A stretch of DNA of 64,000 bases from a bacterium (GCA_037200965.1 JBBCGK010000001.1:433992-497991); one strand, 5' to 3'. Shown: positions 44,248 to 59,094, counted from the first letter of the stretch. Numbers and translations: made by a program. The notes: a model not told the origin generated them from the letters alone.

Positions 44248-44357
44248 ATTAACTCCGATCAAAAATGCGGCTCGATGCTAGTTTAGTGGCTGGCGCAGGG
44301 CCAGAGGAATAATCTTCGCAAGCGTGCGTCAGGCCACGCCCTACGGTAACGCGTCGA

Positions 44358-45341: not shown

Positions 45342-45453
45342 TATTCGTGCCCAGGATGCGAGGACTCGCCCTAGCCGAAGAACGGATGATGCCCGGATGA
45401 TTTCACCCGTCCAAGAGGAATGTGCGCCTTAGACTTCGTATCGGGCCGGGCCT

Positions 45454-46359
45454 ATGCTGCTTCTATTGGTGGGGTGTTTCTCAGGGGGTATTGGCATGAC
45501 TAGCGGCACGCGAGTTTTTCCGACGCGTTCGTATCGGGCATCATTTCCCATTCATGCGCTTCTTGCCGTCTTCGCGCTTCTCGTCGCGGGTGCGTATGGC
45601 CCGGCCGGTTCGGCCTTGGCCGCGACCAGCGCGGCGTCCTTCTGCCTTGACGCATGCCCCGAGGGCGCGCCGGCAAAGAACAAGACGGTCGTGCACCATG
45701 TCTATGCGCTCAGCTCGAACCCCGACACGAAATTCGCCGATTGGGTCGCGTACAAGATCTCCAAAGCGACCATCGGGTCGAACTGTTCGCGCAAGTGGGC
45801 GAAGGACCCGGACCTAGCGGCCGGCACCACGCTCAAGCCCGCCGATTACAAGGACATCAGTGCGGCGCTCCAGTCCGACCGGGGCCATCAAGCGCCCTTG
45901 GCAAGCCTATGCGGCTCGAAGTTCAATGCCGAGGCGAACTATCTCTCGAACATCACCCCACAAAAGTCCGACCTCAATCAGGGCGCATGGGTGCGGCTCG
46001 AAACCGCCGAACGCAAGCTCATTACGGGCGGCACCGCGAAGACCGTGTATACCGTCACCGGGACGCTCTACGAAAAGAAGATGCCGCCGCTTCCCAAGGC
46101 GAGCGTCAAGCACAAAGTCCCTTCGGGCTATTGGAAGATCGTCGCCGTCGAGACGGACGACGGGATCGACGCCGTGGCGTTCGTCATGCCGCAGGATACA
46201 CCCAAAGCCGCCGATTATTGCGAAACGCGCACCACCATCGGCGACGTTGAGACGCGCTCGGGCCTCAAGTTCTTCCTCGATCTCAACGAGACCGACCGCA
46301 CGCAGCTTGAGGAGAGCGAGGCGAAGACCGGCCTCTATGAGGATTTGGGCTGCGAGTAG
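45454..46359 (+). CDS. Secreted DNA/RNA non-specific endonuclease (Serratia NucA family)
   Basis: Signal-anchor, then SDRGHQAPLAS (the DRGH catalytic motif) and downstream Asn/Glu residues. Confidence 0.7.
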   Translation: MLLLLVGCFSGGIGMTSGTRVFPTRSYRASFPIHALLAVFALLVAGAYGPAGSALAATSAASFCLDACPEGAPAKNKTVVHHVYALSSNPDTKFADWVAYKISKATIGSNCSRKWAKDPDLAAGTTLKPADYKDISAALQSDRGHQAPLASLCGSKFNAEANYLSNITPQKSDLNQGAWVRLETAERKLITGGTAKTVYTVTGTLYEKKMPPLPKASVKHKVPSGYWKIVAVETDDGIDAVAFVMPQDTPKAADYCETRTTIGDVETRSGLKFFLDLNETDRTQLEESEAKTGLYEDLGCE

Positions 46360-46381
46360 CACGAGCGCGGGAAGATACGGC

Positions 46382-46669
46382 ATGCGCAAGGCATTCATAC
46401 TGACGCTGGTGGCGTTCTCCGCACTTGCGGCAACCCCACTCATCGCGCGGACCACGGATGCGGAAGTCCGGGGACAAATGATCCGCGAGTCCATCGCAAG
46501 CTATCCCGGCAACTGCCCGTGTCCGTACAGCACGATGCGAAACGGGCGCTCCTGCGGCGGGCGAAGCGCGTACAGTCGGCCCGGCGGATATGCTCCGCTG
46601 TGCTACCCGTCTGACGTTTCGGACGATATGGTGCGCGGCTATCGAAGCACGCATGGGCTCGGGAACTGA
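46382..46669 (+). CDS. Small secreted Cys-rich protein (95 aa)
   Basis: Signal peptide MRKAFILTLVAFSALAATPLIA; 6 Cys; begins 20 nt after the nuclease stop. Confidence 0.35.
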   Translation: MRKAFILTLVAFSALAATPLIARTTDAEVRGQMIRESIASYPGNCPCPYSTMRNGRSCGGRSAYSRPGGYAPLCYPSDVSDDMVRGYRSTHGLGN

Positions 46670-46865
46670 TCGATCCGATTGATATCTGGCGAAGCGCGCA
46701 AACGCTCATCTCGCTCTATGGCGATGAGGCGGAACAGTTCGCGCTTCGCCGCGCCGCTACCCTGCTCGGCGAAGGAGACCGGGAGGGCCATGCGGCAATG
46801 GCAAGCGTTGCGGAAGCGGTGAAGAAGCTGCGGCAGGAGCGGCCCGAAAGCGGCGATGCCGTCCA

Positions 46866-47273
46866 CTAGTCGGCGTCCGGCAGCTTATCGGAAGCCTCGG
46901 CAAACTCCCGCACCAGCGCGACGATGTGCTTGCGCCGGGCGGGCGACTTGACCTGCGCGAACGCTCTCGCAAGCGCCCGCCCGTCGGCGCTCGAAAGCAG
47001 CGGCATTTCTTCCGCGAACAGTGCCGAACGGGCTTTGTCGTATGCCTCGGAAACGAAGTATTCCCAGGGCAGATCAAGCACCACCATCATCCGCAACAGC
47101 GCTTCAAGCGGCAGCCGGTTGGTTCCCTTTTCATACTTCTGCATCTGTTGGAAACTAACGCCGAGGCGCTTTCCGAGAGCGAGTTGCGACAGGCCGCGCA
47201 GCGTCCGTGCGGCAAATATCTTTTGGCCGATAATCTTATTGATCTCTGACGAACTGTGCTTGCGCGGGGCCAT
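46866..47273 (-). CDS. XRE-family (Cro/C1-type HTH) transcriptional regulator
   Basis: IGQKIFAARTLRGLSQLALGKRLGVSFQQMQKYEKGTNRLPLEAL. Confidence 0.6.
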   Translation of the reverse strand: MAPRKHSSSEINKIIGQKIFAARTLRGLSQLALGKRLGVSFQQMQKYEKGTNRLPLEALLRMMVVLDLPWEYFVSEAYDKARSALFAEEMPLLSSADGRALARAFAQVKSPARRKHIVALVREFAEASDKLPDAD

Positions 47274-47349
47274 TCTCAATCCCGTTATACTATCGATCTC
47301 GCAAATTCTATGGCGCGAAAACCCCATTGTCGCGCGCAATCTCAGCCTG

Positions 47350-48333
47350 TTACGCCTCCTTCATCCACTCCCGGTGCATGCGCTCCCATTCCGGGCGCGG
47401 CGCTTCGAACTCTTCCCGGAACCACGGCATATGCTCTGGCACGAAGACCGTCTCGCGCAGGAACGCGAGCGTCGATTTGACGGCGGGTTTTGCGGCATGC
47501 ACGCGGTTATATGAGATGTAGAGCTTGCCGGGAAGGCGAAACGCAAGCGGAAGGGCGACGAGGTCCGGGTCGCCAAGCGCGTGGTAGGTAGGTGCGAGCG
47601 CGATGCCCGCGCCAAAATGCAGGCACCGCTCGAAGAAGCTCGTCTGGTTGGTGAGGATCGACACGTTCTTGACGACGTTTCCGCCCGACCATGCGGCCCA
47701 GGATGCCGTGCGCGTCTGATACTGGGCGAGATCGAGCAACCGGTGCTCGCTAAGCGCTTCGCTCGTCTGCGGCGTCCCGTGTTTTTGCAGATAGGACTTC
47801 GACGCGAACAGGGCGTAATGGACGGTCGCGAGCGGCCTCGACACCTGATCCGAATTTCCCGGATCGTAGAAGTGGATGCGGATGTCGAAGCTGTCGCTTC
47901 GGGGCGCGGTGATGTCCTGATCGGGCGATACCTTGAGCTCAATGTTCGGATGCCGTTCGAGGAAGCTCGGCATGAACTGCGCCAGCCAGAGGCTCGCAAC
48001 CCCGTCCGCGACCAGGATGCGGCAGTCGCCTTGAACGCTGCCTCCGCTGTCCTTCGCGTCCCTGCGAAGGAGCGCAATGCATTTGCGCGCCTCAAACGCG
48101 TTCGGAAGCAGACGTTCGCCGAGGTCGGTGAGCGCGCAGCCGTCGGTGCCGCGTATGAATACGCGCCCGCCGATCCACTGTTCGAAGCTGCGCAGCCGCT
48201 TGCTCACGGTTGCCTGCGTTGATCCGAGCATCGCCGCGGCCCGCTTGATGCTGCCGCCCTCGGCGATTGCGAGAAAATAGCGGAGATCGTTCCACTGCTC
48301 GGGCGAGGGGTCATCACTATTGGAAAGTACCAT
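47350..48333 (-). CDS. LysR-family transcriptional regulator
   Basis: N-terminal HTH WNDLRYFLAIAEGGSIKRAAAMLGSTQATVSKRLRSFEQWIGGRVFIRG... plus a substrate-binding domain; divergent from the GNAT gene. Confidence 0.7.
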   Translation of the reverse strand: MVLSNSDDPSPEQWNDLRYFLAIAEGGSIKRAAAMLGSTQATVSKRLRSFEQWIGGRVFIRGTDGCALTDLGERLLPNAFEARKCIALLRRDAKDSGGSVQGDCRILVADGVASLWLAQFMPSFLERHPNIELKVSPDQDITAPRSDSFDIRIHFYDPGNSDQVSRPLATVHYALFASKSYLQKHGTPQTSEALSEHRLLDLAQYQTRTASWAAWSGGNVVKNVSILTNQTSFFERCLHFGAGIALAPTYHALGDPDLVALPLAFRLPGKLYISYNRVHAAKPAVKSTLAFLRETVFVPEHMPWFREEFEAPRPEWERMHREWMKEA

Positions 48334-48434
48334 CTTCCGTCCCTTGGCTTCCGGGCGGCGATAATCGAATGGCAATTTAAGCTCCGGCAACAAAAAAATG
48401 CATAAGGCGCCAGGCGGCGCCGTGGAGTAATTCC

Positions 48435-49601
48435 TTGGAAAAGAACGATTTTAGCGCGATACGAAGCGGTACCTACGGGCCCGAACATGCCGCAGCGCAT
48501 CCCGATGGGGGAAGCGTATGGCTGCGTCCGGCCGGGGTCGGGGATATTCCGTTTGTGCATAGCCTGACCGTCTCGGACATCTCCGCCGAAACGGCACCGG
48601 AGGAGGTTATTCGGGCTGTTCACGCCCGCAATCCCGATGCCCTGTGGCTTATCGAGCGCCAAAGAGGCGGGGAGCCACCGGCCCCTATCGGCTATTTCGG
48701 CTTCCTGCCGCTCACCGATCCCGGTCTCGACGCGCTCAAGGAAGGCGCGCTCGACCGCAAGAGCCCGCCGCTTGAGCTTGTGGCCGAGGGCGGCACGCGT
48801 CCGGCGGCGGTGTACGTGTGGGGCGTCGTGGCGCATCGCCTAGTGCGGGTCACCGCGCCGCTCCTCACCCTCGCGCTTTCGCCTTACATCGACGTTCCCT
48901 TCTACACCGTCTCCCAGACCGAAGAGGGGCTGCGCTCGGCCCGTAGGCGCGGCTTCGTGCCGGTCGATGCGCGGATCGGCGACCGGGGCGGGCTCGTGCT
49001 GCTGCCGCTTGGCAGCCTTCTTGCGCCGCCGCCAAGCAAAGTCGCGCAGCTCGACGTGATCGTGGCCTCGAACGCCGAGCACCTCATGATGTGCGCCTAT
49101 GTTCGCGGCGTGGTGTTCGGCGCGGAGCAGCTCGCCCCCTACCGCGAGGAATTCGACGGCAACGACTTCTGCGGCATCCAGCTTCTGGGGTTCGTGAACA
49201 ACGAGCCTGCGGCAGTGCTTCGCATCCGTCACTTCGCGTCATTCGCGAAATTCGAGCGGTATGCCGTGCTCGAGCGCTTCCGCAAAACGCGGATCAAGTA
49301 CGAAATCCTGGAGTTCGGAATCGAGCTGTGCCGCCGCAAGGGATACACGAAGCTCTACGCGCACTCGCAGGTGCGCCTCGTCCGCTTCTATGAGCGGTTC
49401 GGCTTTCGTCTGTGCGCCGCGCAGCGTCCGCTCGTCTTCGCGGATCACGAATACGTCGAGATCGAAGCCGACCTCGCGCCGCATCCCGAGGCGATCACGA
49501 CCGCCACCGATCCCTACGTGATCATCCGACCCGAAGGGGCGTGGGACAGGCGCGGCGTTCTTGACCAGTCAGCGGCACGGCCCGCGACTAATCCCGTCTA
49601 G
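48435..49601 (+). CDS. GNAT-family acetyltransferase (two GNAT-like halves)
   Basis: C-terminal half ...AVLRIRHF...ELCRRKGYTKLYAHSQVRLVRFYERFGF fits the acyl-CoA N-acyltransferase fold; divergently paired with LysR. Confidence 0.55.
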   Translation: MEKNDFSAIRSGTYGPEHAAAHPDGGSVWLRPAGVGDIPFVHSLTVSDISAETAPEEVIRAVHARNPDALWLIERQRGGEPPAPIGYFGFLPLTDPGLDALKEGALDRKSPPLELVAEGGTRPAAVYVWGVVAHRLVRVTAPLLTLALSPYIDVPFYTVSQTEEGLRSARRRGFVPVDARIGDRGGLVLLPLGSLLAPPPSKVAQLDVIVASNAEHLMMCAYVRGVVFGAEQLAPYREEFDGNDFCGIQLLGFVNNEPAAVLRIRHFASFAKFERYAVLERFRKTRIKYEILEFGIELCRRKGYTKLYAHSQVRLVRFYERFGFRLCAAQRPLVFADHEYVEIEADLAPHPEAITTATDPYVIIRPEGAWDRRGVLDQSAARPATNPV

Positions 49602-49603
49602 GA

Positions 49604-49840
49604 GTGCTCGACATGGCCGGAACGCTCGATTGCTTTGTCCGCCTTGTTGAACTCGACACCTGCGTGCGTGAGTTGGCACAGCGCAAGCGCGCGAATAATA
49701 GGATCAGCATATCCGATCTTGATGACGTTCTCCTGGCGCTTGCTGAAGCTCGGGAAACGATCCAGGACGACGCGTATGACGAGATGGCGAGGCGGCGAGC
49801 GATAACAACGGCGGACATAATGCAGTTCGCAAAAGATTAG
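49604..49840 (+). CDS. Small hypothetical protein (78 aa)
   Basis: ORF 2 nt after the GNAT stop; no domain. Confidence 0.25.
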   Translation: MLDMAGTLDCFVRLVELDTCVRELAQRKRANNRISISDLDDVLLALAEARETIQDDAYDEMARRRAITTADIMQFAKD

Positions 49841-50107
49841 CGAAAGCGCGCGGCTCTATTCAAAACGCGGCCTACGACAAGTTCGCAACTATTCGTCCGA
49901 CAACACTCGCCCGATAACGGATCATTCGGCAACCAGAGGATAATGAGTATATCGCGGGAGCGAAGCATAGGAGACGATGCAGTGCATAGTCCGTCATAAA
50001 TTCAACGGCGGCATCCTGATGGTAGCTGTATAACAGCGTGGTGCCGGAACTTCCCCTTGTAGCCAATACCGGGCTTCGTTACAAAGCTTCAAGGGGAGGC
50101 TATATGC

Positions 50108-51743
50108 ATGCTTAATCACACCTTTGGAGTGATCTCGCTGGGTCGTTTCCTCACTGCTATACGTCCTGCGCGTTATGCGGTCCGCTCTGCCAATCGAACA
50201 CGCTTCGGCCAAGGGCTGGTCTCGGTCCGCACCCTAGTCGTCGCTGCGTGCGTTGCAATGAGTTGGCTAGCCGCATTGCCGCAAGCCGCCATCGCGAGCA
50301 GCGTCTTGATGAGCGTGCCAGGCGAAAGCGACGTAAACTCGGCGGGTGCCTTCACATATTCACTTCCTATTGCAGTTCCGCCCGGGACTGCCCGCATCGT
50401 ACCGCGACTGTCGCTTGATTATTCCAGTCAAAGCGGCAATGGCCTCCAAGGCCTCGGCTGGTCGCTTTCCGGATTGCCGGCAATAGGAAGATGCGCGCGC
50501 ACGGTGGCGCAAGACGGCGTGCATGGCAGTGTCAATTACGACGGCAGCGACAAATTCTGCTTGGAAGGCCAGCGCCTAGTCGCCCTAAGCGGCGTCTATG
50601 GCGCGAACAATACGGAATATCGTACCGAAATAGAGAGTTTCACCAAAATTATTTCATACGGAACGGCGGGTAACGGGCCAGCCTCGTTCAAAGCGTGGAC
50701 CAAGTCCGGTCAAATCCTGGAATTCGGAAACACGGCGGATTCCCGTATCGAAGCGGTCGGCAAGACAACGGTGCGCGCGTGGGCCGTCAATAAGGTTTCC
50801 GATGCCAAAGGAAACTACGTCACGGTCGAATACACCGACGACCAAACTAACGGAGAGGCGTATCCGGTTCGGATTGATTATACCGGCAATCCCAACGCAA
50901 CGCCGGTGGTTATGCCGTACAATTCCGTGCAGTTCACATACACAACGCGCGCAGATATCACGATTGCCTATCAGGCCGGTTCGCAGCAGAAGATCACAAA
51001 ACTTCTCACCAATATTAAGACTTATCAAGCCGCGAATTTGGTTTCCGACTATCGCCTTGCCTATCAAGCCGGCTCATCGCTCGCACATTCGCGTCTAACG
51101 TCCATCACGTTATGTGATGGGTCGGGTACGCCGGTATGCCTTGCCCCCACGACCTTTGGCTGGCAGGGTGGCAGCGGTAGCCTGCCGACAATGACCGGGA
51201 CCGCATCCACTATCATTCCGACGCAAAGCGGTGATTTCAACGTTGACGGATTAACAGACCCCTTTGTCAAAGCCCCGTATTTTGGAACTCAGAGCGGAAC
51301 GTTCGTCGCGAGCGGCATGACTATAAGCTATACCGACCCCATATCGGGATTGCCGTGGTCGGGTCTAACGGCTTTCCCCAACACAATGGTCGGGTTTGTA
51401 TTGGGTGATACCGACGGAGACGGGTATAGCGACGTCACCGCGATGCGGGGTATCGCACATGGCGCTTATGCCAGGTTGGTGGTTACGCGCAACGACCAGC
51501 TCGGAAATCTTGGTCAGATCGGCCTGATCGATCCGCTGCATGCTGGCGCCATATTCAGCGGCGACTTCAATGGAGACGCGCGCACGGACGTTTTCGTGAC
51601 GGGTGTAGCTTCTTATAACAGTACGACGTATCTGAGCCTGGGGACCGGATCGTTCACCGCCATCAACATGAGTTCGGTATATGAACCCATCACGACCGCC
51701 GATTTTGATGGTGACGGATGCACCGATTTCTTGGGATCGACTA
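50108..51743 (+). pseudogene. N-terminal fragment of a Tc-toxin TcB/SpvB-like protein with FG-GAP/VCBS-type repeats, truncated by repeat R3
   Basis: SLPIAVPPGTARIVPRLSLDYSSQSGNGLQGLGWSL (SpvB N-terminal signature); GDFNGDARTD, DFDGDGCTD repeats. The ORF runs without a stop into R3 and then into nonsense. Confidence 0.6.
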
Positions 51744-51779
51744 GTTGCACAACCTCCTTTTTACGAACGATCCTGCAGG
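51744..51779. repeat. Array repeat R3 (36 nt, perfect); truncates the SpvB-like gene
   Basis: Exact sequence match; translated in frame as CTTSFLRTILQ at the end of ORF 50108. Confidence 0.95.
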
Positions 51780-51793
51780 TTTCCGTTAATCTT

Positions 51794-53134
51794 CTAAGTC
51801 TCTTGTTGAGACGCAACACAGCCCCACGCCGCTTTTACCGAGTCATAGATAAAGCCTACCGTCAGAACCTTGGATATAACCGTCGTGGTTGGCAACGCCG
51901 TGCCTTCTGCCACGAACGACGCCCCCCAGGTAATCGCCCGGGCCGTACCGTCGTCTTTGATCCTGAAGATGAGCGTCTGGAAGTTCGTGGGTGTACCGGA
52001 GAGATTTGTCGTCATCGACGTGATCGCGGTCGCAAGAGCAGTAATCGTCACGGCGTCGCACCCATCGCTATTCACTGTAGGGGTTGCCGAAGAAACAATC
52101 GTCGTTATGCGTGGAGTATTTCTCTTATTTGCAAGAGTCTGTGTACCATTGTTAGTCACGACACTGTCAGCGTTTGTGCCTGCAACCGAGATTCTCAAAT
52201 CTCCTGTTCCAACGGTAAGCACTCCTGAGGTGTGCGTTGCAACCCAGTTACCGTTACTAATGTTCCAGGTAAAACCAGTAGCACTAAAGAGATCGGCCCA
52301 TCCAAGCGCGGTCGTCCCAAGAGCGGCAATATCATTCGTGACCGGGGAAAGAGCGGAGGAGGTAAGTTGTATCGTTCCTGTTCCGTTGATAGCCAGACCA
52401 AGCGTATTGGTTGTAGGAAGGTAGAGGCGATTACCGGTAGCAGTTGAAGAGGTAGGAGCAAAGCCAGCCGCAGTTGCCAGCGATGCCAACGTCAAAGCTC
52501 CGGCGTCGGTCAAGGTTGCATTGGTGGATGTTGCTTGTGCGCCGCGCGAAGTACCATCGGACCGAAGTATAGATTCATCTGTGGCAAAAGTGGCGGCAGC
52601 GGTGACTACATTACTCGGTATATCGCTTGTAAGAGCGACGGTACCCGTGGACGCCGGAAGGGTAATGGTGTTAGTTCCAGCGATTGCCGTAGGGACGAGG
52701 GCGATGGTACCGGAAGTTGAACCCGAGAAGGTTACACCCTGGGTACCGGAAATGATGCCAGTGGTGTCAGCAATAAGCACTGCCGAGTTCTGGATCAGCT
52801 TACCAGTGGTAGTGTCGAAGCGGGCCACGGCGTTATCAGTTGCTGAAGCCGGGCCTACAACATAGGTAGCAAGGGAAGCAGTCGTAGGAATAACATAGCC
52901 GCTTTGGAGCGCTATAGCGATCGTTCCGGAAGTAGTGATCGGTACGCCGGATACCGTAAGTCCTGTCGGTACCGTAGCGTCAACGGATGTAACCGTACCT
53001 CCTCCTCCGGGGAGGTCTATAAGAAGCCTGTGCGTCGTCGGGTCTGCATATAGACGCACAGGCGTCTTGCCGTCAGCGCTTGAAGCTGCTATCAGCGTTG
53101 GAACATCGTTCTGGTCTCGGTAAGCATCAGCCAT
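51794..53134 (-). CDS. Thr/Ser/Gly-rich beta-repeat protein resembling a phage tail fibre/adhesin
   Basis: 446 aa; N-terminus ...IAASSADGKTPVRLYADP...; low-complexity T-rich repeats (…TSGTIALVPTAIAGTNTITLPASTGTVALTS…). Confidence 0.45.
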   Translation of the reverse strand: MADAYRDQNDVPTLIAASSADGKTPVRLYADPTTHRLLIDLPGGGGTVTSVDATVPTGLTVSGVPITTSGTIAIALQSGYVIPTTASLATYVVGPASATDNAVARFDTTTGKLIQNSAVLIADTTGIISGTQGVTFSGSTSGTIALVPTAIAGTNTITLPASTGTVALTSDIPSNVVTAAATFATDESILRSDGTSRGAQATSTNATLTDAGALTLASLATAAGFAPTSSTATGNRLYLPTTNTLGLAINGTGTIQLTSSALSPVTNDIAALGTTALGWADLFSATGFTWNISNGNWVATHTSGVLTVGTGDLRISVAGTNADSVVTNNGTQTLANKRNTPRITTIVSSATPTVNSDGCDAVTITALATAITSMTTNLSGTPTNFQTLIFRIKDDGTARAITWGASFVAEGTALPTTTVISKVLTVGFIYDSVKAAWGCVASQQET

Positions 53135-53136
53135 AA

Positions 53137-53298
53137 TCAGGTACTTTGTACGAGTAATTCCCCGGCACTATTGGCGTAGAGCACCACAGGCGTCTTGCCG
53201 TCAGCGCTTGAGACAGCCATGAGTGCAGGAACAAAGTTTGCGTCCCGCAGATCGTCTACCGGCCCAAAGTCCGACCCGGTAGTGTCGTCGTCCGCCAT
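53137..53298 (-). CDS. Short N-terminal paralog fragment of the tail-fibre-like protein, starting next to repeat R4
   Basis: ...VPALMAVSSADGKTPVVLYANSAG... mirrors the N-terminus of the 51794-53134 protein (...IAASSADGKTPVRLYADP...). Confidence 0.3.
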   Translation of the reverse strand: MADDDTTGSDFGPVDDLRDANFVPALMAVSSADGKTPVVLYANSAGELLVQST

Positions 53299-53327
53299 AA
53301 GCGCATGTGTTGAAGGGTCAGCAACGA

Positions 53328-53363
53328 GTTGCACAACCTCCTTTTTACGAACGATCCTGCAGG
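53328..53363. repeat. Array repeat R4 (36 nt, perfect)
   Basis: Exact sequence match. Confidence 0.95.
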
Positions 53364-53460
53364 AGTATGAGTACTGATACCGTCCAATCTGCCATTGAAT
53401 ATGCGCGACACTCGCCGTCGTGACGACGTTGAGTTAAGTCAATGGCGATTTATGTTACTG

Positions 53461-53982
53461 TCACCGGACCGGCACGAACCCTTCGGGAAGAAACTGCGTC
53501 GGGTCCTTCCACGGTTCAATAGCAACTGCTTTGGGGTATTTGCTTATCATGTAAGCATCGGTGCAATACACCAAACTTTCGGGATCATCGTCCGAAGGCT
53601 CAAGGCCTGAAAATTCAACCATCACAGATTTCTGGTTGGTAATTTTTCCAAAGGTGTCAATGAACCGCTTGATTTTGTCAAACTCACGCACAAAATCGTC
53701 GGGCTCAAATAGATAGGAATACACTACTACTGTATTCTCGCCGACGATCCGTTCGGAACCGTCCTCATTTTTCACGCGGAAACGCCCAGCGGCGAGCGGC
53801 AATTGGGTTACACCGCCATTGATCCGCACCATAATTTCCATGGCGCTATCGACCCATTTGTCAAAATTTTCAACAGGCTTCTGATCGCGATCTTGGTTAG
53901 GCAAATAAACTGCAAACCGTTGTACCGATTCAGATGTATCGGCACCTAGCGCGGTCTTGAGGTCAAAATCTACGAGCGCCAT
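53461..53982 (-). CDS. Hypothetical protein (173 aa), low-GC
   Basis: Clean ORF; no domain recognised. Confidence 0.45.
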   Translation of the reverse strand: MALVDFDLKTALGADTSESVQRFAVYLPNQDRDQKPVENFDKWVDSAMEIMVRINGGVTQLPLAAGRFRVKNEDGSERIVGENTVVVYSYLFEPDDFVREFDKIKRFIDTFGKITNQKSVMVEFSGLEPSDDDPESLVYCTDAYMISKYPKAVAIEPWKDPTQFLPEGFVPVR

Positions 53983-54068
53983 GATCGCTTCCTATTAGCC
54001 ATCAATGAAAAGGCCCCATAGCCGGGGCCTTAAAGTAGGCAAAATGCCAAATTGCAACGCTGATGCCG

Positions 54069-54725
54069 CTACCGCGGTCTTGAAGGTCTCCGAATTCCGA
54101 GCACCGTTTTAGGGTCCCGCTTGATCTTTAGAAACCGTCCAAATCCCGAACGAGCGTCTTCAGGTTTCTCCGCTTGTTGGGAAGCTGAACGAATCGCTGT
54201 CACTATCTCGTTAGCAGCTTCTGATATGGGCGGCAAATTTTGCCGGTTATAGTCGCCTGGCGGGATTCCCGCGTGCTTCTTTTTCATATGATTTTCTCCT
54301 GTTTCTTCACAGGGTTGCGACCCATCGGTCTCAGCCCCGTGTTGATCGGGAGAAAGCCCTTCAAGAATCGGGCCGCGTACGTCGGTTTCCCAGGTTAAGG
54401 CTTCGACGCGAATATCCTGGCCACGGTCCGTCCTTATGCTTTCGCGATGGGGACCATACCCACATAGTACCACAGCGGCATGCGTAGTCGCGCCCGAAAT
54501 CTCGTGGACTATATCCGCAGCAGCGCCAATACCAGCGCCCGTTACTATCAAGTCATAGACCATCAAGATGCGATCACCGGAAAGCGGTTTGTCTGCCGTT
54601 ATTGCTACGCCCTTCGCCCAACGCGTCTCGCGATAGATGCAGGCGGGCAATCCGGTTTCGGCGACGAGGGACGAGAGCATCGAAATCGCGCCGACCGGCC
54701 CCATCTCTTTTTCGATAAAGCACAA
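54069..54725 (-). CDS. Phosphoribosyltransferase (type I PRTase) domain protein
   Basis: ILMVYDLIVTGAGIGAAADIV is the PRPP-binding motif (VLLVDDVLTTGGT-like). Starts 13 nt from repeat R5. Confidence 0.55.
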   Translation of the reverse strand: MCFIEKEMGPVGAISMLSSLVAETGLPACIYRETRWAKGVAITADKPLSGDRILMVYDLIVTGAGIGAAADIVHEISGATTHAAVVLCGYGPHRESIRTDRGQDIRVEALTWETDVRGPILEGLSPDQHGAETDGSQPCEETGENHMKKKHAGIPPGDYNRQNLPPISEAANEIVTAIRSASQQAEKPEDARSGFGRFLKIKRDPKTVLGIRRPSRPR

Positions 54726-54738
54726 TCGCGTAATGCCG

Positions 54739-54774
54739 GTTGCACAACCTCCTTTTTACGAACGATCCTGCAGG
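54739..54774. repeat. Array repeat R5 (36 nt, perfect); truncates the patatin-like gene
   Basis: Exact sequence match; read through as SCRIVRKKEVVQ by the minus-strand ORF. Confidence 0.95.
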
Positions 54775-55372
54775 AAACCATGAGAGAACCCGAGTTGATC
54801 TCGGTGGCCACGATCTTCAAAGGCGACAACTCGTTAAATTCCTCATAGTTCAGGTCAGCGAACCGAATTCGATCAGGCACTCCATCGTGATCACGACCAT
54901 TTGCGGCATATAATTCCCGCATACGTTCTCGAAGAACTGTGTTGATGAATTCACGAATGGGCGTTGTGGTGAAAAAGCCTAAGTGCCGCCATATGCGCAG
55001 CATTCCAAACGTAACTAGGGGAGCTGTTAAAAAAGACAATAATACACCCCCCAACGCCGTAGCGGACAATGCCCATCGAAGTCCCTGGCGGAGGCGAACA
55101 AATCTACGCCAATCATCAGCCCCCAATAACGTTACGGGGGTCAAGTTATGTAGGCTGAGAATATTTTGATCCCTAATGTCGGGATTCATCAAAGTCGAAG
55201 CACTGTATCCCGCCGCGACTAGCGTTGCCACGATCGCGCCAGCTGACGCCCCGGCTACACCTACGAAGGCGAGCCCATTCTTCGCGGCACCCTCCAAAGC
55301 ACCAATATGCGCTATGCCCTTAGCACCGCCACCTTCGAATATGCCAAAGGCTGGCCTCTTAGCGTCCATCAC
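54775..55372 (-). pseudogene. Patatin-like phospholipase, 3'-truncated by repeat R5
   Basis: GIFEGGGAKGIAHIGAL (oxyanion-hole GGGxxG) and GASAGAIVA (GxSxG nucleophile). The ORF is read through R5 before the catalytic Asp (DGG) region is reached. Confidence 0.6.
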
Positions 55373-55505
55373 TGTATGTATCCTTTCGCAAATCAGGTCG
55401 GGGCCTGCACAAACGACAGAACATCGGACAGGCTGGTGAAATAATGAGATACCAGCCTTCGCACATTGCTGTTCCGCATACAGATACAGCAGTTGCTAGT
55501 TCAAA

Positions 55506-57077
55506 TCAGTTCAGTTGCTCCCGCACCAACGAAAGATCGTTGAACAACGTTCTCGTAAGATTCGGGATTTTTTCCAGTTTGTCTGCTTGTATTAACTTCG
55601 CCATAAAACGAATGCTTCCCTCCACTCGCTCGTCATAGAATATTTCGTGCAGAAACTTCCGCCCCTGCCGCAAATCCGTAGCATCAAACAGAAATTCCAG
55701 CTTGGCTTCGTTATCGACCATAGCAACTGCACGCCAAAAGAATCGAGGAAAATTCGCTGTCAGGAGGCTCTTGCGGACTATCTTGCTTAGGGAGGAGCGC
55801 GAAACAATCTCGCGTTTCAGATCGCTTGGGCCATTCAAAAATATGTCCCACTCGAAACGAGCCATATCACTATTGCTCGATAATTTTTTAAGCATCTCTA
55901 AAATATGATCAAATGCCAGGATAGCATCGTACACGTCGTCAAATCGGACGCGAATTTTGCTATAGAGCGGCACGAGACACAAATCCGCGCGAGCACGGGT
56001 TATCTTCGTCCCACGCTTTCGAGACCAAGTTGTCGTTATGATGTTAGATGGGCCGCTCAGCTTGATCTCAGAGTATGGGCCGATGCCGTCGTCATGCGCA
56101 TACAGTTTGGTTATGCGCGTCGCCCGTAGAAGAAAACCCGTGCGAGGTTCGGGTACTATGGGACCAGTTGTGGGCCCAAGGCCGCTGAGTGCGACCGCGT
56201 GAAATGCTCGTTTGCTTTTCTTGGAGCGTTCTAAGTTGAAGTCAAAACTCAGAATGATCGGAATATTGCCCCTCAAGAATGCATTTGCTGCGGCTTGGAT
56301 ATTGGCTCGCTCGGGCGTCATAAACAAATCCGCTTCGAGACCGACATTGCGCAAAACGCCAGCCATTTGATCGATATCCAAGCCGTCGTTCGGGAGAGCT
56401 AGGCCAGCTGTTGGCAGCGAAGCAAACGCTCGTTTGGTTATTTCAATAGGTGATAAGATTGGATTGTCATACAAATTCGCCGTGCCATGCAGTGTAGTCC
56501 ACAGAGCGCTGGTAGCGCATGCGCCAACCTCTCGGTCTTGTTCTTGAAAAGGCAGCGCACGTACAGGCAGATCTATGCCGAAAAGATTTGGTACATATCC
56601 GCGCTCAGTGAGGAAGCGACTCGATGGATTACTCCCAACCGGCGCCAAACACGTTCGCCCAATGATGGTTTCGGGAAGAGGTTTGACAACTACAAAGCCG
56701 TGATATCCCAAGACGTCGAACCTACACTCACCGCGGCCCGAAACGAAAAGCGCTTCGACCATATCTTTATCGAACGGTTGCCGAAAAAAGTGAATTCGTG
56801 AACATTCTTTCGGATAGTTCGCGTGGCATCTCGCGTAGTATCCTGTATGATCTTCGGCGAAATGCTTGTCGATGTAGTCGCGCTCAAATACAAGAGTTTC
56901 GATTTTCGCGGCTTCACAGTAACGAGCTAGAAAAATGACCTGGGGCTTTTGTGCAATTTGCTCCAGTCTAGGTTTAAATGCTCCGGCAACAAAAAGCGCT
57001 ACCAAGTTCTCTCGATTGTACTTGAGTACTTGGTAGCGCTCGCCCATGTGATCTAACTGAATATCCGCGTACGTCAC
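55506..57077 (-). CDS. Hypothetical protein (523 aa) with a possible Cys-His peptidase-like motif
   Basis: Large clean ORF in array segment E; GACATSALWTTLHG is the only suggestive motif. Confidence 0.45.
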   Translation of the reverse strand: MTYADIQLDHMGERYQVLKYNRENLVALFVAGAFKPRLEQIAQKPQVIFLARYCEAAKIETLVFERDYIDKHFAEDHTGYYARCHANYPKECSRIHFFRQPFDKDMVEALFVSGRGECRFDVLGYHGFVVVKPLPETIIGRTCLAPVGSNPSSRFLTERGYVPNLFGIDLPVRALPFQEQDREVGACATSALWTTLHGTANLYDNPILSPIEITKRAFASLPTAGLALPNDGLDIDQMAGVLRNVGLEADLFMTPERANIQAAANAFLRGNIPIILSFDFNLERSKKSKRAFHAVALSGLGPTTGPIVPEPRTGFLLRATRITKLYAHDDGIGPYSEIKLSGPSNIITTTWSRKRGTKITRARADLCLVPLYSKIRVRFDDVYDAILAFDHILEMLKKLSSNSDMARFEWDIFLNGPSDLKREIVSRSSLSKIVRKSLLTANFPRFFWRAVAMVDNEAKLEFLFDATDLRQGRKFLHEIFYDERVEGSIRFMAKLIQADKLEKIPNLTRTLFNDLSLVREQLN

Positions 57078-57538
57078 ACTGTGAACGGGATACGCCGACG
57101 GTCAGGAGAAATCTGGTTGGCTTGTTCTCGACTTTCAATTGCCTTGAGCATTGGCGAAAGACGCTTAGCGACTTGCGCAGTAAGATCAGTTCTGGAGGCC
57201 GTCGCCTTGGACTTGGGCCGTGCAGAACTCTTCGTCTTTTTGTGACGCATAGCGCAACCTCCAATTTCGGTGAGCAGGATGTTGCCCTCAGTTCCAGCCC
57301 GGCGGGTATAAACTCCAACACGGGGATCAAAATCAAGCTCATGGACTTGACTTCCTGGAACGGGGCCGCCTAGGGCTCCCCTGTAACGAATCAGCCCTGT
57401 TCTTAACGTACCACGAGCGCCTTCGTATCCCCAATATTTTGTATGTGGATAATCCACCAACACAAGTTCTTTGAATGGTGAGGCTGGCCGTTGCCTTTCC
57501 TCAGTGGCGTCGCCGTCCGTTGACCCAATCGCCTGCAT
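57074..57538 (-). CDS. Hypothetical protein (154 aa)
   Basis: 4-nt overlap with the downstream 523-aa gene; no domain. Confidence 0.3.
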   Translation of the reverse strand: MQAIGSTDGDATEERQRPASPFKELVLVDYPHTKYWGYEGARGTLRTGLIRYRGALGGPVPGSQVHELDFDPRVGVYTRRAGTEGNILLTEIGGCAMRHKKTKSSARPKSKATASRTDLTAQVAKRLSPMLKAIESREQANQISPDRRRIPFTV

Positions 57539-57677
57539 AACAATTTAATGCCTTCCTTCTGGCAGCAGACCACTAGGAGCGGCAGACGGCCGTTCATTAT
57601 CAGCGTGGATCATTGGCTGGACCGAGCCCCAATCGGTGACTGATTCGTACGGCTAAAGACCGCTCGGGTCAACTAAG

Positions 57678-57713
57678 GTTGCACAACCTCCTTTTTACGA
57701 ACGATCCTGCAGG
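57678..57713. repeat. Array repeat R6 (36 nt, perfect), cas-proximal
   Basis: Exact sequence match; 32 nt from the cas2 stop codon. Confidence 0.95.
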
Positions 57714-57745
57714 AGTCCGTGTATATTGAGCGGTAACGCGAATTA

Positions 57746-58042
57746 CTAGACAATCTCAAAGGACTTGATCTTATAATACTCCCCGATAACGGCATCGGCA
57801 GTTGAATTAAGTGCGCATGATTTGCAGGAAGAAAATAGATGCAGCCGATCCCGTTTTCCCGTGAATAGCGATCGCATCTTCATTTCAAATTCCCGGCGCT
57901 CCTTAAAGGAAAGGCGTCCGACGTAGAGAGTCTGTTGAAGTGCGGATAAACCATAGTCCTTTGATAACTTTTCCGCGCGGATCTGGCGCTGCCGATTGGC
58001 GGTTCTCCAGGCGACTATTGCAAGGAAGCATGGATCATTCAT
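57746..58042 (-). CDS. cas2: CRISPR-associated endoribonuclease Cas2 (beta1 Asp apparently replaced: LAIVAW)
   Basis: 98 aa; ...RQRQIRAEKLSKDYGLSALQQTLYVGRL... fits the Cas2 alpha1/beta3 pattern (…YGxRxQxSVFxC…); 4-nt overlap with cas1; 32 nt from R6. Confidence 0.55.
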   Translation of the reverse strand: MNDPCFLAIVAWRTANRQRQIRAEKLSKDYGLSALQQTLYVGRLSFKERREFEMKMRSLFTGKRDRLHLFSSCKSCALNSTADAVIGEYYKIKSFEIV

Positions 58043-59094
58043 GGTGCCGCATATTCAAACGGCACATATAAGGGCGCTTTTTCAAGAAATACCCGGCTTA
58101 AGAGCTCGCTCTGTTCCGTAATGGTATTGCGGAGCGTACGGCGTTTCCCGTGATGGAGGACTTTCGACTCGAGGCGCTTAAGCACCGCCTCAACCACCTT
58201 GCTCTTTCCTTGCGCAGAAAGCCGATATTCGATCTTGCTTACCTGCTCGAAATCGCCGCGCTTGCCAAGTTCCTGAGAAATGAAGAGCGGCATGACTGCA
58301 GCGTCGACGACGGGGACCCGAAACTCTTCGACCAGATCGAGGACGAGCGCGGGCTTGCCGTAACGCTCGGAATGATAAAGTCCGAGATACGGGTCGAGAC
58401 CGATATAAAGGCACGCCCGCTCGACTTCGTTATAGAGGATGCCGTATCCGTAATTAAGAGCGCTGTTGAACTTGTCCCTGCCTTGCGGTATCCGGCCCGG
58501 GAACTTAAAAAGCGATTTCATGCCTTGCCAATAGCGCTCTGCAATGGATCCTTCAAGGCCAAGCAGTTCCTCGTTCACCCGGTTGCTCGGAAGCAGCTTC
58601 GCTATCGACTCAAAAACCGCCTCCGCCTGCATCCGCTCCTTCGCATTCTCCGCACCGTATCGGTCGGCAAGATGGCGCATAAAGCGGATTTGGTTGCGGC
58701 ACTTACCGACAACGAAGGTACGCGCAAGTTCGAAGGATTTAGCCGGATCGGAGGAAGTCGTAAGCTGTGCGCGGCGCAATGTCGCGAGCCCCTTCGGGTC
58801 GCTTGAGAAAATGCGCCCGACGGGTTTCCCAAATGCGCCGAGATAGACGATATCGACTTCGTGCTCGAGCGCGAGTTGCACCGCATGCATGGAAATGGAG
58901 GACGGACGGAGTATGACGATCTTAGCAAGCCGCCGGACCGGATACTCCTTCTTAACCCGGAGAAGCTTTACCGCAGTTCCCCGCTTGCGACGCCTGCCAC
59001 CCCCAAGCGGCTTTCGCGGAACCGGGAGACTGACCGTAATACGCTCGCCCGTCGCGCCGATGAAGCTGCCATAGGTATCTATCAGCAAATCCAT
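58039..59094 (-). CDS. cas1: CRISPR-associated integrase Cas1
   Basis: NSALNYGYGILYNEVERACLYIGLDPYLGLYHSERYGKPALVLDLVEEFRVPVVDAAV is the hallmark Cas1 catalytic-region signature; 351 aa. Confidence 0.85.
   Translation of the reverse strand: MDLLIDTYGSFIGATGERITVSLPVPRKPLGGGRRRKRGTAVKLLRVKKEYPVRRLAKIVILRPSSISMHAVQLALEHEVDIVYLGAFGKPVGRIFSSDPKGLATLRRAQLTTSSDPAKSFELARTFVVGKCRNQIRFMRHLADRYGAENAKERMQAEAVFESIAKLLPSNRVNEELLGLEGSIAERYWQGMKSLFKFPGRIPQGRDKFNSALNYGYGILYNEVERACLYIGLDPYLGLYHSERYGKPALVLDLVEEFRVPVVDAAVMPLFISQELGKRGDFEQVSKIEYRLSAQGKSKVVEAVLKRLESKVLHHGKRRTLRNTITEQSELLSRVFLEKAPLYVPFEYAAP

What the first reader, a model, noticed from the sequence alone, without database searches (positions are those of the whole stretch)
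53364..57677. Segments D and E carry domains typical of anti-phage or toxin effectors (PRTase domain, patatin-like lipase, large unknown proteins)
A type-I PRTase-domain protein starts 13 nt from R5 on the array's putative transcription strand. A patatin-like phospholipase (GGGxxG and GxSxG) is truncated by R5. A 523-aa protein has a Cys-His motif, and three other ORFs are unknown. All are co-oriented with cas1-cas2.

Patatin and PRTase domains recur in defence islands as effectors. This raises the possibility that the array functions as a cassette store for defence or offence genes rather than sequence memory.
Basis: inference. Interest (0 to 1): 0.6.

Follow-up and report, generated by a model that had tools for sequence, protein, structure and literature searches.

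The report
Kilobase-sized spacers beside stand-alone cas1–cas2
The two stretches are not a store of working defence genes. They are kilobase-long pieces of foreign DNA, cut without regard to gene ends and inserted between identical repeats next to a lone cas1–cas2 pair; this CRISPR-like capture system with giant 'spacers' recurs in many small-genome bacteria and I found no description of it.

Summary
The sequence features are real. Six perfect 36-nt repeats follow cas1–cas2, and segments D (1,375 bp) and E (2,903 bp) lie between them.

Repeat R5 cuts a gene on each side:
- The patatin-like gene keeps only its first 199 codons; homologues have about 540.
- The PRTase-like gene lacks about 120 N-terminal codons, so its "start 13 nt from R5" is an artefact.

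The intact genes are:
- a 58-aa peptide plus a 523-aa papain-like cysteine protease, a pair found elsewhere in defence islands, an ICE and prophage-like contigs;
- a 173-aa partner of the PRTase-like gene.

D and E therefore hold mobile-element or defence-island DNA, but as fragments rather than cassettes.

The wider picture matters more. Segment A is a boundary-exact, 100% identical copy of 2,180 bp from a 4-Mb genome in the same assembly. Cas1 relatives in many Patescibacteria and other MAGs carry the same leader motif and repeat family. They have either one repeat or repeats separated by 0.14–10.9 kb (median 1.4 kb, never under 100 bp), the inserts often cut through ordinary genes, and no effector gene is conserved nearby.

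Best reading: a Cas1–Cas2 clade integrates long DNA at the leader-proximal repeat. The "cassette store" idea is not supported. The system itself appears undescribed.

The parts
58039..59094 (-). cas1 (351 aa)
   Evidence: Pfam PF01867 1.1e-63. TIGR00287 1.4e-65, with no subtype model above its cut-off. Closest solved Cas1 is 7cr6, E 1.8e-31.
57746..58042 (-). cas2 (98 aa), overlapping the end of cas1 by 4 nt
   Evidence: PADLOC Cas2b 9.4e-7. Pfam Cas2 0.0034, below the cut-off. Cas2 is conserved with cas1 in related loci.
57714..57745 (-). 32-nt leader between the cas2 stop and the first repeat; ends ...CAATATACACGGACT
   Evidence: The last ~16 nt match a motif (CCWWTAWTTNCNGGCT) conserved just 5' of the first repeat in 16 related loci.
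57678..57713 (-). Repeat R6 (leader-proximal); reads CCTGCAGGATCGTTCGTAAAAAGGAGGTTGTGCAAC in cas1 orientation
   Evidence: Perfect copy. Member of the family CCTGCA-N-TCGNAAAAAGGANNTTGTGCAAC.
54775..57677 (-). Segment E (2,903 bp, GC 0.51 against 0.58 in the flanks)
   Evidence: No DNA match in the phage or plasmid collections.
57074..57250 (-). 58-aa basic ORF ending SPDRRRIPFTV, overlapping the start of the protease gene
   Evidence: Called in GCA_015655515.1. Conserved upstream partner in homologous loci, with a shared C-terminal motif.
55506..57077 (-). Intact 523-aa papain-like cysteine protease of an unnamed family
54775..55372 (-). Patatin-like phospholipase gene, first 199 codons only; 3' end cut by R5
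   Evidence: PF01734 profile positions 2-118 of 191. The best homologues are 520-560 aa and match only their residues ~1-200. The frame is open into the repeat.
54739..54774 (-). Repeat R5
   Evidence: Perfect copy. The Logan unitig L035 carries 29 nt of it joined to segment D.
53364..54738 (-). Segment D (1,375 bp, GC 0.52)
   Evidence: Recovered as a separate unitig flanked by repeat ends in SRR28211700, and its D-R4 junction in SRR10968228.
54069..54738 (-). PRTase-fold gene, last ~222 codons; 5' end cut by R5
   Evidence: Homologues P0122, P0124 and P0126 are 337-354 aa and extend ~120-135 aa further N-terminal. APRT PRPP-loop match E 0.0065. The homologue model matches only PRTases (Foldseek E 4.8e-7; model pLDDT 52, core 70-90).
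53461..53982 (-). Intact 173-aa gene, conserved downstream partner of the PRTase-fold gene
   Evidence: 48% identical to the gene that follows P0122 in L037 (E 5e-51; context). No family hit.
53328..53363 (-). Repeat R4
   Evidence: Perfect copy.
51780..53327 (-). Segment C: phage tail-fibre-like gene plus a 5'-cut paralogue fragment
   Evidence: phrog_3030 9.5e-23. A 62-codon frame is open at the R4 side. Unitig L096.
51744..51779 (-). Repeat R3
   Evidence: Perfect copy.
40811..51743 (.). Segment B (10.9 kb, GC 0.60): T4CP-like ATPase, ATP-grasp, S1/P1 and NS nucleases, HTH, LysR, acetyltransferase; an SpvB/FG-GAP gene cut at R3 and an unknown gene cut at R2
40775..40810 (-). Repeat R2
   Evidence: Perfect copy.
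38595..40774 (+). Segment A (2,180 bp): 5'-cut MazG-like gene, short PurA/PurZ-like gene, 250-aa gene
   Evidence: 100% identical and boundary-exact to L097:7687-9866, on the 4.0-Mb contig JBBCBH010010880.1 of the same assembly. There the first gene is a complete 297-aa gene inside an integrase/T4CP/relaxase element. Pfam, PHROGs and NCBIfam.
38559..38594 (-). Repeat R1 (distal), 16 nt from the tatD start codon
   Evidence: Perfect copy. TatD_DNase annotated at 37727-38542.

Best explanation
D and E are two of five spacer-like inserts in a CRISPR-type array whose 'spacers' are kilobases long. A stand-alone Cas1-Cas2 integrase sits in a ~0.96-Mb Patescibacteria-type genome, with no effector gene nearby. 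It takes linear pieces of foreign double-stranded DNA of almost any length (0.14-10.9 kb seen; median 1.4 kb) and inserts them at the leader-proximal repeat. Each insertion duplicates the 36-nt repeat, as ordinary spacer acquisition does, but without the ~30-40-bp ruler.

The ends of the captured DNA fall at arbitrary positions, so genes at the edges are truncated.
- E is a piece of a defence-island or mobile-element region. It holds an intact peptide + papain-like protease pair and the first 37% of a patatin lipase gene.
- D is the 3' two-thirds of a PRTase-fold gene plus its intact partner gene.
These genes are passengers, not stored cassettes.

Shown by sequence:
- identical repeats flank every insert;
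- the leader motif is conserved;
- related loci have a single repeat, as a naive array would;
- edge genes are truncated;
- one insert has an exact external source;
- the pattern recurs across a Cas1 clade.

Inferred:
- Cas1-Cas2 is the enzyme that does it;
- insertion is polar, so E would be the newest insert;
- what the archive is used for. My guess, with low confidence, is sequence memory read through long transcripts or an unlinked effector; otherwise it is a by-product of a selfish, mobile cas1-cas2 unit.
For: - Six perfect repeats. R5 cuts genes on both sides, and at least 6 of 10 segment ends cut open frames.
- Segment GC ranges 0.49-0.60 against 0.58 in the flanks.
- Segment A is an exact 2,180-bp copy of part of an integrative element in a 4.0-Mb contig of the same assembly. 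Homology starts and stops at the repeat edges, and the source has no repeat-like flanks.
- The same order R6-E-R5-D-R4-C-R3-B is found in a second NCBI assembly (99.96% identity). Segments A, C and D are recovered as separate Logan unitigs that end inside the repeats.
- Eleven Cas1-relative loci (52-85% identity), including contigs from MFD-labelled MAGs, carry cas1-cas2, a conserved leader motif and a homologous 36-37-nt repeat repeated at 0.18-7 kb spacing. Others carry a single repeat.
- 39 inserts measure 140-10,933 bp, median 1,375, none under 100 bp.
- 58 metagenome contigs carry the repeat family and none has short spacing.
- Only cas1 and cas2 are shared among the loci.
- Inserts in related arrays hold truncated ordinary genes.
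- The Cas1 alignment to a solved Cas1 covers the conserved core.
Against: - There is no biochemical evidence that any Cas1-Cas2 integrates kilobase DNA.
- Only one insert (A) has an identified source; none was found for D or E.
- No PAM or end motif was found.
- Genes cut at their 3' end are rarer at segment ends (8 of 50 with at least 100 codons) than random cuts predict (41%), so cutting may not be fully random.
- 15 of 39 inserts cluster at 1.0-1.6 kb, which is unexplained.
- Many metagenome contigs carry a family repeat with no cas1 within several kb.
- Polarity of insertion was not tested.
- The protease pair in E is intact and could be expressed.
Confidence: 0.7

Rival explanations
1. 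One reading: the array is an integron-like bank of functional defence or offence gene cassettes. They would be expressed by read-through from cas1-cas2, and D and E would contribute PRTase, patatin and protease effectors.
For: - The D/E genes are co-oriented with cas1-cas2, and only 32 nt separate cas2 from R6.
- The 58-aa + 523-aa protease pair and the 173-aa gene are intact.
- The protease family lives in defence islands and prophage-like contigs.
- The patatin fragment weakly matches anti-phage phospholipase models.
Against: - The patatin gene keeps 199 of ~540 codons and stops at profile position 118 of 191.
- The PRTase-fold gene lacks ~120 N-terminal codons.
- Other segments hold genes on the opposite or mixed strands, and cut fragments of DnaX, an FAD monooxygenase, MFS, Ppx/GppA and TPR genes.
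- There is no integron integrase or attC-like site, and the repeats are identical direct copies.
- No PADLOC system was recognised.
- Promoter- and terminator-like sites are not above chance.
Confidence: 0.08
2. A once-ordinary CRISPR array was disrupted by mobile-element insertions or by homologous or site-specific recombination at the repeats. On this view Cas1-Cas2 played no part and the kilobase inserts are secondary damage.
For: - Inserts contain mobile-element genes: integrase, T4CP, tail fibre.
- Some degraded loci keep only the cas2 3' end + leader + repeat.
- The cas1-cas2-repeat unit itself is multi-copy in one MAG.
Against: - Not one ordinary-length spacer or spacer remnant flanks any of the 39 inserts. 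The repeats abut cut genes directly.
- The inserts lack terminal inverted repeats, transposases or complete elements.
- The source of A is an internal 2.18-kb piece of an element and has no repeat-like flanks.
- The pattern recurs in every array of the clade, and no canonical array uses this repeat family.
Confidence: 0.1
3. Assembly artefact: unrelated contigs were chimerically joined through a shared 36-nt repeat.
For: Short-read contigs often break at the repeat (L001 ends inside R6). Many Cas1-bearing contigs are only 1.2-2.5 kb.
Against: - Two NCBI assemblies give the same order of four inserts, with only 4 SNPs away from the contig end.
- Unitigs from two SRA runs carry insert-repeat junctions.
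- The source record is a 960-kb contig. The window runs across its ends, which fits a circular record, and an independent contig spans that join.
- The same architecture is seen in more than 10 unrelated MAGs, including contigs of 0.3-1.1 Mb.
Confidence: 0.02

Closest known systems
Canonical CRISPR adaptation module (Cas1-Cas2 integrase, leader, repeat-spacer array)
   Same: cas1 and cas2 are adjacent. A short conserved leader motif abuts the first repeat. Identical 36-37-nt direct repeats flank every insert. Related loci with a single repeat look like naive arrays. One insert is copied from foreign DNA with an identifiable 'protospacer'.
   Different: Inserts are 0.14-10.9 kb instead of ~26-72 bp, and their length is not uniform. 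No effector or crRNA-processing gene lies in the 64-kb window or within ±10 kb of more than 20 related loci. No PAM was seen. The cas1-cas2-repeat unit sits in a different genomic context in each genome.
Casposons (Cas1-solo 'casposase' transposons)
   Same: A Cas1-family integrase associated with insertion of kilobase-length DNA and duplication of the target sequence. The ~1.5-kb cas1-cas2-repeat unit has sharp ends and is multi-copy in one MAG. The casposase 6opm is among the solved relatives (E 7.6e-20).
   Different: Cas2 is present. No PolB or terminal inverted repeats were found. The inserted DNA is heterogeneous foreign sequence, not the element itself. Insertions pile up serially at one site into an array. 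This Cas1 is closer to CRISPR Cas1 (7cr6, 4n06) than to casposase.
Integron gene-cassette arrays
   Same: Serial kilobase-scale units separated by a recurring short site next to an integrase gene. Some units carry defence- or mobile-element-type genes.
   Different: There is no tyrosine-recombinase IntI and no attC-type imperfect palindromes. The units are not ORF-bounded: genes are cut at the edges and orientation is mixed.
Patatin-like phospholipase effectors of defence systems (for example the phospholipase effector models in PADLOC and NCBIfam)
   Same: The N-terminal GGGxxG and GxSxG motifs are present, and the fragment weakly matches these models.
   Different: Only the first 199 of ~540 residues are encoded. 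Scores are far below the family cut-offs (19.8 against 400 bits). No partner genes of any known system are present.

Membership tests
CRISPR-Cas locus (adaptation module + array) | Adjacent cas1 and cas2 genes | tested here: met
   cas1: Pfam 1.1e-63, TIGR00287 1.4e-65. cas2: PADLOC Cas2b 9.4e-7, Pfam 0.0034 below the cut-off.
CRISPR-Cas locus (adaptation module + array) | Array of near-identical direct repeats of ~23-55 nt | tested here: met
   Six perfect 36-nt copies, none expected by chance.
CRISPR-Cas locus (adaptation module + array) | Spacers of short, roughly uniform length (~26-72 bp) | tested here: not met
   Inserts of 1,375-10,933 bp here. Across 39 inserts in the clade the range is 140-10,933 bp, none under 100 bp.
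CRISPR-Cas locus (adaptation module + array) | Spacers copied from foreign DNA (a protospacer exists) | tested here: met
   Met for segment A only: an exact 2,180-bp copy of part of an integrative element in a 4.0-Mb contig. No source was found for D or E.
CRISPR-Cas locus (adaptation module + array) | Effector (interference) genes linked to the array | tested here: not met
   None in the 64-kb window. Only cas1 and cas2 are shared among 22 related loci with ±10-kb flanks. The rest of the genome was not available.
CRISPR-Cas locus (adaptation module + array) | Conserved leader next to the first repeat | tested here: met
   A ~16-nt motif ending GGCT lies directly 5' of the first repeat in 16 loci.
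Integron cassette array | IntI tyrosine recombinase, attC sites, ORF-bounded promoterless cassettes | tested here: not met
   No conserved recombinase other than Cas1. The repeats are identical direct copies. At least 6 of 10 segment ends cut open frames.
Casposon | Cas1 without Cas2, family B polymerase, terminal inverted repeats | tested here: not met
   Cas2 is present. No PolB among the neighbours. No inverted terminal repeats were reported.
Patatin-like phospholipase (PF01734) | Complete domain with the Ser-Asp dyad (GxSxG plus the C-terminal DGA/G motif) | tested here: not met
   GGGAKG and GASAG are present, but the match covers only profile positions 2-118 of 191. The gene ends at R5 after 199 of ~540 codons.
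Type I phosphoribosyltransferase | PRPP-binding loop with two acidic residues, and the PRTase fold | tested here: inconclusive
   No PF00156 hit even at E=10. The loop reads VYDLIVTG, with Tyr replacing one acidic residue, and this is conserved in the family. APRT match E 0.0065 and 1.6e-4 over ~46 residues. The model of homologue P0122 matches only PRTases (Foldseek E 4.8e-7), but its mean pLDDT is 52. The window copy lacks ~120 N-terminal residues.
Known anti-phage defence systems (PADLOC-DB 2.0) | Proteins matching the models of a described system | tested here: not met
   Only a weak phospholipase-effector hit for the patatin fragment (1.9e-4). Nothing for the 523-, 222-, 173- or 154-aa products.
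Papain-like cysteine peptidase (clan CA; staphopain/C39-like) | Papain fold with a conserved Gln/Cys/His(/Asp) active site | tested here: met

The most novel reading that the evidence does not exclude
A widespread clade of stand-alone Cas1-Cas2 modules, mainly in Patescibacteria but also in MAGs labelled FCPU426, proteobacterium and Verrucomicrobiota, has no length ruler. It archives gene-length (0.1-11 kb) pieces of foreign DNA in leader-polarised arrays. That would make it a living intermediate between casposon-type integration and CRISPR spacer acquisition, possibly used as kilobase-scale sequence memory or as a route of horizontal DNA capture from neighbouring or host cells.
Probability: 0.55. 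Interest if true: 0.9.

Novelty: new variant of a known kind. Interest (0 to 1): 0.8.

Why it matters
If Cas1-Cas2 of this clade really inserts kilobase DNA, several things follow.
- The accepted picture of CRISPR adaptation as a strictly ruler-measured process would need widening.
- It would give a natural link between casposons and CRISPR arrays, a long-discussed step in CRISPR origins.
- It would offer a candidate enzyme for programmable site-specific insertion of gene-length DNA.
- It would show that ultra-small, probably episymbiotic bacteria keep exact copies of DNA from co-resident large-genome bacteria. Segment A gives a direct donor-recipient pair, which is useful for inferring who interacts with whom.

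For the finding as written, the practical message is a caution. Defence-type domains inside such arrays are captured fragments and should not be annotated as functional effectors. Two gene pairs seen here may still be worth testing as new defence or toxin modules in their native hosts: the small peptide + papain-like protease, and the PRTase-fold protein + ~150-173-aa partner.

Tried and rejected
- Exact search for the 24-nt repeat core found nothing in the viral, metagenome or genome collections. The central part of the repeat is strain-specific; a degenerate 3'-half pattern then found 58 contigs.
- Pfam, PHROGs, PADLOC and NCBIfam gave nothing for the 523-, 173- and 58-aa products, and almost nothing for the PRTase-like ORF. 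A profile search of the PDB with the protease family also found nothing, so fold comparison was needed.
- DNA search of D+E against the phage and plasmid collections gave no match. Exact-protein look-ups for the D, E, C and B genes returned only the same locus, so no source is known for D or E.
- I looked for a PAM or end motif at 50 insert ends and found none.
- The idea that insert sizes are multiples of ~0.7 kb was dropped once L104 showed 140-590-bp inserts.
- Repeat RNA structure: the cas-sense strand folds (-10.4 kcal/mol, z -2.5). RNAalifold found no consensus. The terminal stem (columns 3-8 with 30-35) is 90% paired, but its 3' side never varies, so there is no covariation evidence. 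An RNA structure and a DNA inverted repeat cannot be told apart.
- Promoter and terminator scans of D/E were not above shuffled expectation.
- There is no synteny of cas1-cas2 flanks between the window and its closest relatives.
- Cas1 relatives were absent from viral contigs.
- Seven literature searches found no description of kilobase spacers or of this clade. That is absence in the held library only.

Full report
**What is at the coordinates**

The window carries six perfect copies of the 36-nt sequence GTTGCACAACCTCCTTTTTACGAACGATCCTGCAGG at 38559, 40775, 51744, 53328, 54739 and 57678 (no shuffle produced any). They bound five segments:

| Segment | Coordinates | Size |
|---|---|---|
| A | 38595-40774 | 2,180 bp |
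| B | 40811-51743 | 10,933 bp |
| C | 51780-53327 | 1,548 bp |
| D | 53364-54738 | 1,375 bp |
| E | 54775-57677 | 2,903 bp |

On the minus strand the order is metG, cas1 (58039-59094), cas2 (57746-58042), a 32-nt gap, R6, E, R5, D, R4, C, R3, B, R2, A, R1. The tatD start codon follows R1 after 16 nt. cas1 is unambiguous (Pfam 1.1e-63, TIGR00287 1.4e-65). cas2 is weaker but recognisable (PADLOC 9.4e-7). The rRNA genes are interrupted by a group I intron, and the closest Cas1 relatives are Kaiserbacteria/Paceibacterota MAGs. The host is therefore a Patescibacteria (CPR)-type bacterium, on a 960-kb contig.

**The genes of D and E**

*Patatin.* ORF 54605-55372(-) has GGGAKG and GASAG and hits PF01734, but only profile positions 2-118 of 191. 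Its frame runs from segment E straight through R5. A search of 1.8 billion representative proteins shows that its relatives are typically 520-560 aa and align to the window product only over their first ~200 residues, for example P0128 (541 aa, 53% identity, residues 4-198). The gene is cut after codon 199, so the C-terminal part of the domain is missing.

*PRTase-like gene.* The frame of ORF 54069-54725(-) is open right into the repeat. Homologues of 337-354 aa extend ~120-135 residues further at the N-terminus, and the window copy begins exactly at the D/R5 boundary. The 'start 13 nt from R5' is therefore an artefact of truncation.

The PRTase label itself is soft:
- There is no Pfam hit even at E=10.
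- There is a 46-residue match to the PRPP loop of APRT (E 0.0065; 1.6e-4 at 21 bits against a cut-off of 170).
- The motif VYDLIVTG, in which Tyr replaces one of the two acidic residues, is conserved in the family.
- A model of the full-length homologue P0122 is poor overall (pLDDT 52), but its core (pLDDT 70-90) matches only PRTases in the PDB (Foldseek E from 4.8e-7).

*The 173-aa gene.* The gene at 53461-53982 is 48% identical to the gene that follows P0122 in another contig. D is therefore the 3' part of a conserved two-gene operon.

The gene is always preceded by a small ORF. Here that ORF is 57074-57250 (58 aa), not the 154-aa ORF. The small ORFs share a C-terminal S-P-E/D-R-R-R-I-P-I/F-T-V motif. 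Elsewhere the pair sits among PIN-TPR-GreABC, HetE-N, Mrr/M78, NACHT and RelA_SpoT genes, in a conjugative element, and in five IMG/VR contigs. Patatin is not its neighbour there. PADLOC recognises no system in D or E.

**Are the segments cassettes or fragments?**

In this array at least six of the ten segment ends cut an open frame:
- the MazG-like gene at R1;
- an unknown 204-codon frame at R2;
- an SpvB/FG-GAP gene at R3;
- a tail-fibre-like fragment at R4;
- the PRTase-fold gene and the patatin gene at R5.

Segment GC ranges from 0.49 to 0.60 against 0.58 in both flanks. Segment content is phage-like in C, conjugative-element-like in A and B, and defence-island-like in D and E. Genes in A lie on the strand opposite to cas1-cas2 and those in B are mixed, so the co-orientation seen in D and E is not a rule.

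**A source for one segment**

The PurA-like protein of segment A also occurs, 100% identical, on a different contig of the same NCBI assembly (GCA_037975565.1): JBBCBH010010880.1, 4.0 Mb. At the DNA level, window 38595-40774 equals L097:7687-9866 with no mismatch. The identity begins at the first base after R1 and ends at the last base before R2.

In the donor, the stretch lies inside an element with an integrase, a T4 coupling protein, AlpA and a relaxase. Its left end falls inside a complete 297-aa kinase/MazG-like gene, of which the window keeps only the last 105 codons. The donor flanks show nothing like the repeat. This is what a 'protospacer' of 2.18 kb looks like, and it rules out recombination between pre-existing repeats for this insert.

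**Is it an assembly artefact?**

No.
- A second assembly (GCA_015655515.1) is collinear through R6-E-R5-D-R4-C-R3-B at 99.96% identity, with only four real SNPs.
- Logan unitigs from SRR28211700 carry segment C (L096) and segment D (L035) each ending inside the flanking repeats. Segment A is recovered as an exact 2,180-bp unitig (L100).
- SRR10968228 carries the D-R4 junction (L036) and, for segment A, a unitig (L099) that starts 28 nt inside R1.
- The window runs across the ends of the 960,259-bp record, which fits a circular record. An independent contig spans that join.

**The pattern is general**

A genome-collection scan with Cas1 returned 23 loci. In those with 52-85% Cas1 identity, cas1-cas2 is followed by two things: a conserved leader motif (…CCWWTAWTTNCNGGCT) and a homologous 36-37-nt repeat (CCTGCA-N-TCGNAAAAAGGANNTTGTGCAAC). 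These loci include MAGs labelled Kaiserbacteria, Paceibacterota, Adlerbacteria, Taylorbacteria, Saccharibacteria, FCPU426 and 'proteobacterium'.

The repeat is either single, or repeated with exact copies at long spacings:

| Locus | Repeat-to-repeat spacing (bp) |
|---|---|
| L011 | 1369, 1416, 1377, 2414 |
| L025 | 1075, 1466, 2095, 1509, 2910 |
| L019 | 710, 2316, 1265 |

Two more long contigs add arrays with inserts from 140 bp to 7 kb. Over 39 inserts the range is 140-10,933 bp, the median is 1,375 bp, 15 fall in 1.0-1.6 kb, and none is under 100 bp.

A degenerate repeat pattern found 58 metagenome contigs. Where two copies are present they are 938-3,609 bp apart, and no contig shows canonical ~70-bp periodicity. 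Only cas1 and cas2 are shared between loci. No effector is conserved and the flanks are not syntenic. The Cas1 clade is large, with 231 clusters at E ≤ 1e-40.

Inserts in other arrays again hold cut pieces of ordinary genes:
- DnaX lacking its first ~10 codons;
- a 673-bp insert that is one TPR frame open at both ends;
- FAD_binding_3, profile positions 1-220 of 349;
- a T4CP, profile positions 215-287 of 387;
- Ppx/GppA, profile positions 105-230 of 285;
- an MFS transporter fragment.

A simple statistic is mixed. 37 of 50 ends abut an open frame of at least 60 codons, against 83% for random cuts. But frames running outward with no stop for at least 100 codons are fewer (16%) than random cuts predict (41%), and closer to a just-after-stop control (10%). 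Cutting is clearly not ORF-bounded, but it may not be fully random.

**How it most likely works**

The anatomy is that of CRISPR adaptation: an integrase pair, a leader motif, a repeat duplicated at each event, single-repeat loci as expected for naive arrays, and foreign origin. It differs in having no length ruler.

I infer that Cas1-Cas2 of this clade binds the two 3' ends of a long linear duplex and joins them to the two ends of the leader-proximal repeat, as casposases do with kilobase substrates. Gap repair then duplicates the repeat.

On this view E would be the newest insert and A the oldest. A is still 100% identical to its donor, so the whole array is young.

What is shown:
- the structure;
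- the truncations;
- the donor of A;
- the recurrence across loci.

What is inferred:
- the enzyme;
- the polarity;
- any downstream use.

No reader of the archive is visible. Candidate uses are long read-through transcripts acting as antisense or being processed by an unlinked effector. The alternative is no use at all, with the inserts as by-products of a selfish unit. In favour of the selfish reading, the ~1,504-bp cas1-cas2-leader-repeat unit has sharp ends. It occurs three times at 99.7-99.9% identity, with unrelated flanks, in one MAG.

The patatin gene is truncated by R5, the Cys-His protein is real, and the genes are co-oriented. It needs one correction: the PRTase-like gene is also truncated, and its domain call is weak.

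The 'store of defence cassettes' is not supported, because both named effector-like genes are broken by the repeat and related arrays hold arbitrary gene fragments.

**Novelty**

Seven full-text searches found no description of kilobase-length spacers or of this Cas1 clade. I rate the system a new variant of a known kind: a CRISPR-type adaptation module with casposon-like substrate length.

Noticed in passing
L019, L022, L027: 9899-11402 (also L020, L026): The unit made of ~100 bp upstream, cas1, cas2, leader and first repeat (~1,504 bp) has sharp homology boundaries. It occurs three times at 99.7-99.9% identity, with unrelated flanks, in one MAG (MFD05512.bin.1.167). The adaptation module itself looks mobile or recently duplicated. 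No target-site duplication or inverted ends were seen.
   Followed up: partly
window 55506-57250 (-); L003, L004, L008, L105-L109: A conserved two-gene module: a 58-76-aa basic peptide ending SPERRRIPITV, overlapping or abutting a ~520-aa papain-like cysteine protease. It has no Pfam or PADLOC family and occurs in defence islands, a conjugative element and prophage-like contigs. It may be an undescribed defence or toxin-antitoxin pair.
   Followed up: partly
window 53461-54738 (-); L037:3060-4630: A PRTase-fold protein with a non-canonical VYDLxVTG loop (~340 aa) and a 150-173-aa partner form a conserved operon of unknown function. The family is very rare: 6 hits in 5.8 billion proteins.
   Followed up: partly
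window 38595-40774; L097:6178-15956: The donor of segment A is an integrative or conjugative element in a 4.0-Mb genome. It encodes a kinase/MazG-like fusion, a short archaeal-type PurA/PurZ-like synthetase (NF003295 361.8 bits; PurZ model 219 bits) and a P450. These are nucleotide-modification-type genes usually discussed for phages with 2-aminoadenine (Z-base) genomes.
   Followed up: no
L043, L066, L069, L088: Metagenome contigs in which only the last 28 codons of cas2 survive, plus the leader and one repeat, preceded by unrelated DNA. These are either decayed loci or captured pieces of another such locus.
   Followed up: no
window 1-2093 and 14762-20235: The rRNA genes are interrupted. The 16S match is split in two pieces, and the 23S spans 4.3 kb with a group I intron (16313-16529). 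ORFs at 740-1483, 15323-15778 and 17187-17726 look like homing endonucleases by eye; this was not tested. Such interruptions are typical of CPR bacteria.
   Followed up: no
window 37727-38542 and 59150-60580: The cas1-cas2 pair and its 20.5-kb array lie exactly between metG and a tatD-family gene, both on the minus strand. From my own knowledge this gene pair is adjacent in many bacteria, which suggests insertion into an operon. Not tested here.
   Followed up: no
window 53046-53119 and 53174-53247: A 74-nt direct repeat (74% identity) inside segment C reflects two adjacent paralogous tail-fibre-like N-termini. The upstream copy is cut by R4.
   Followed up: partly
39 inserts in the window, L011-L025, L103, L104, L072, L074, L078, L081: Insert sizes span 0.14-10.9 kb, but 15 of 39 fall between 1.0 and 1.6 kb, about the size of the cas1-cas2-repeat unit itself. 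No end motif explains this.
   Followed up: partly
L017:13814-14875: An insert in an Adlerbacteria array encodes a 353-aa protein with a canonical PRTase loop (YVLVDDVISSG) but no Pfam hit. It is unrelated to the window's PRTase-like gene, so this is probably coincidence.
   Followed up: no
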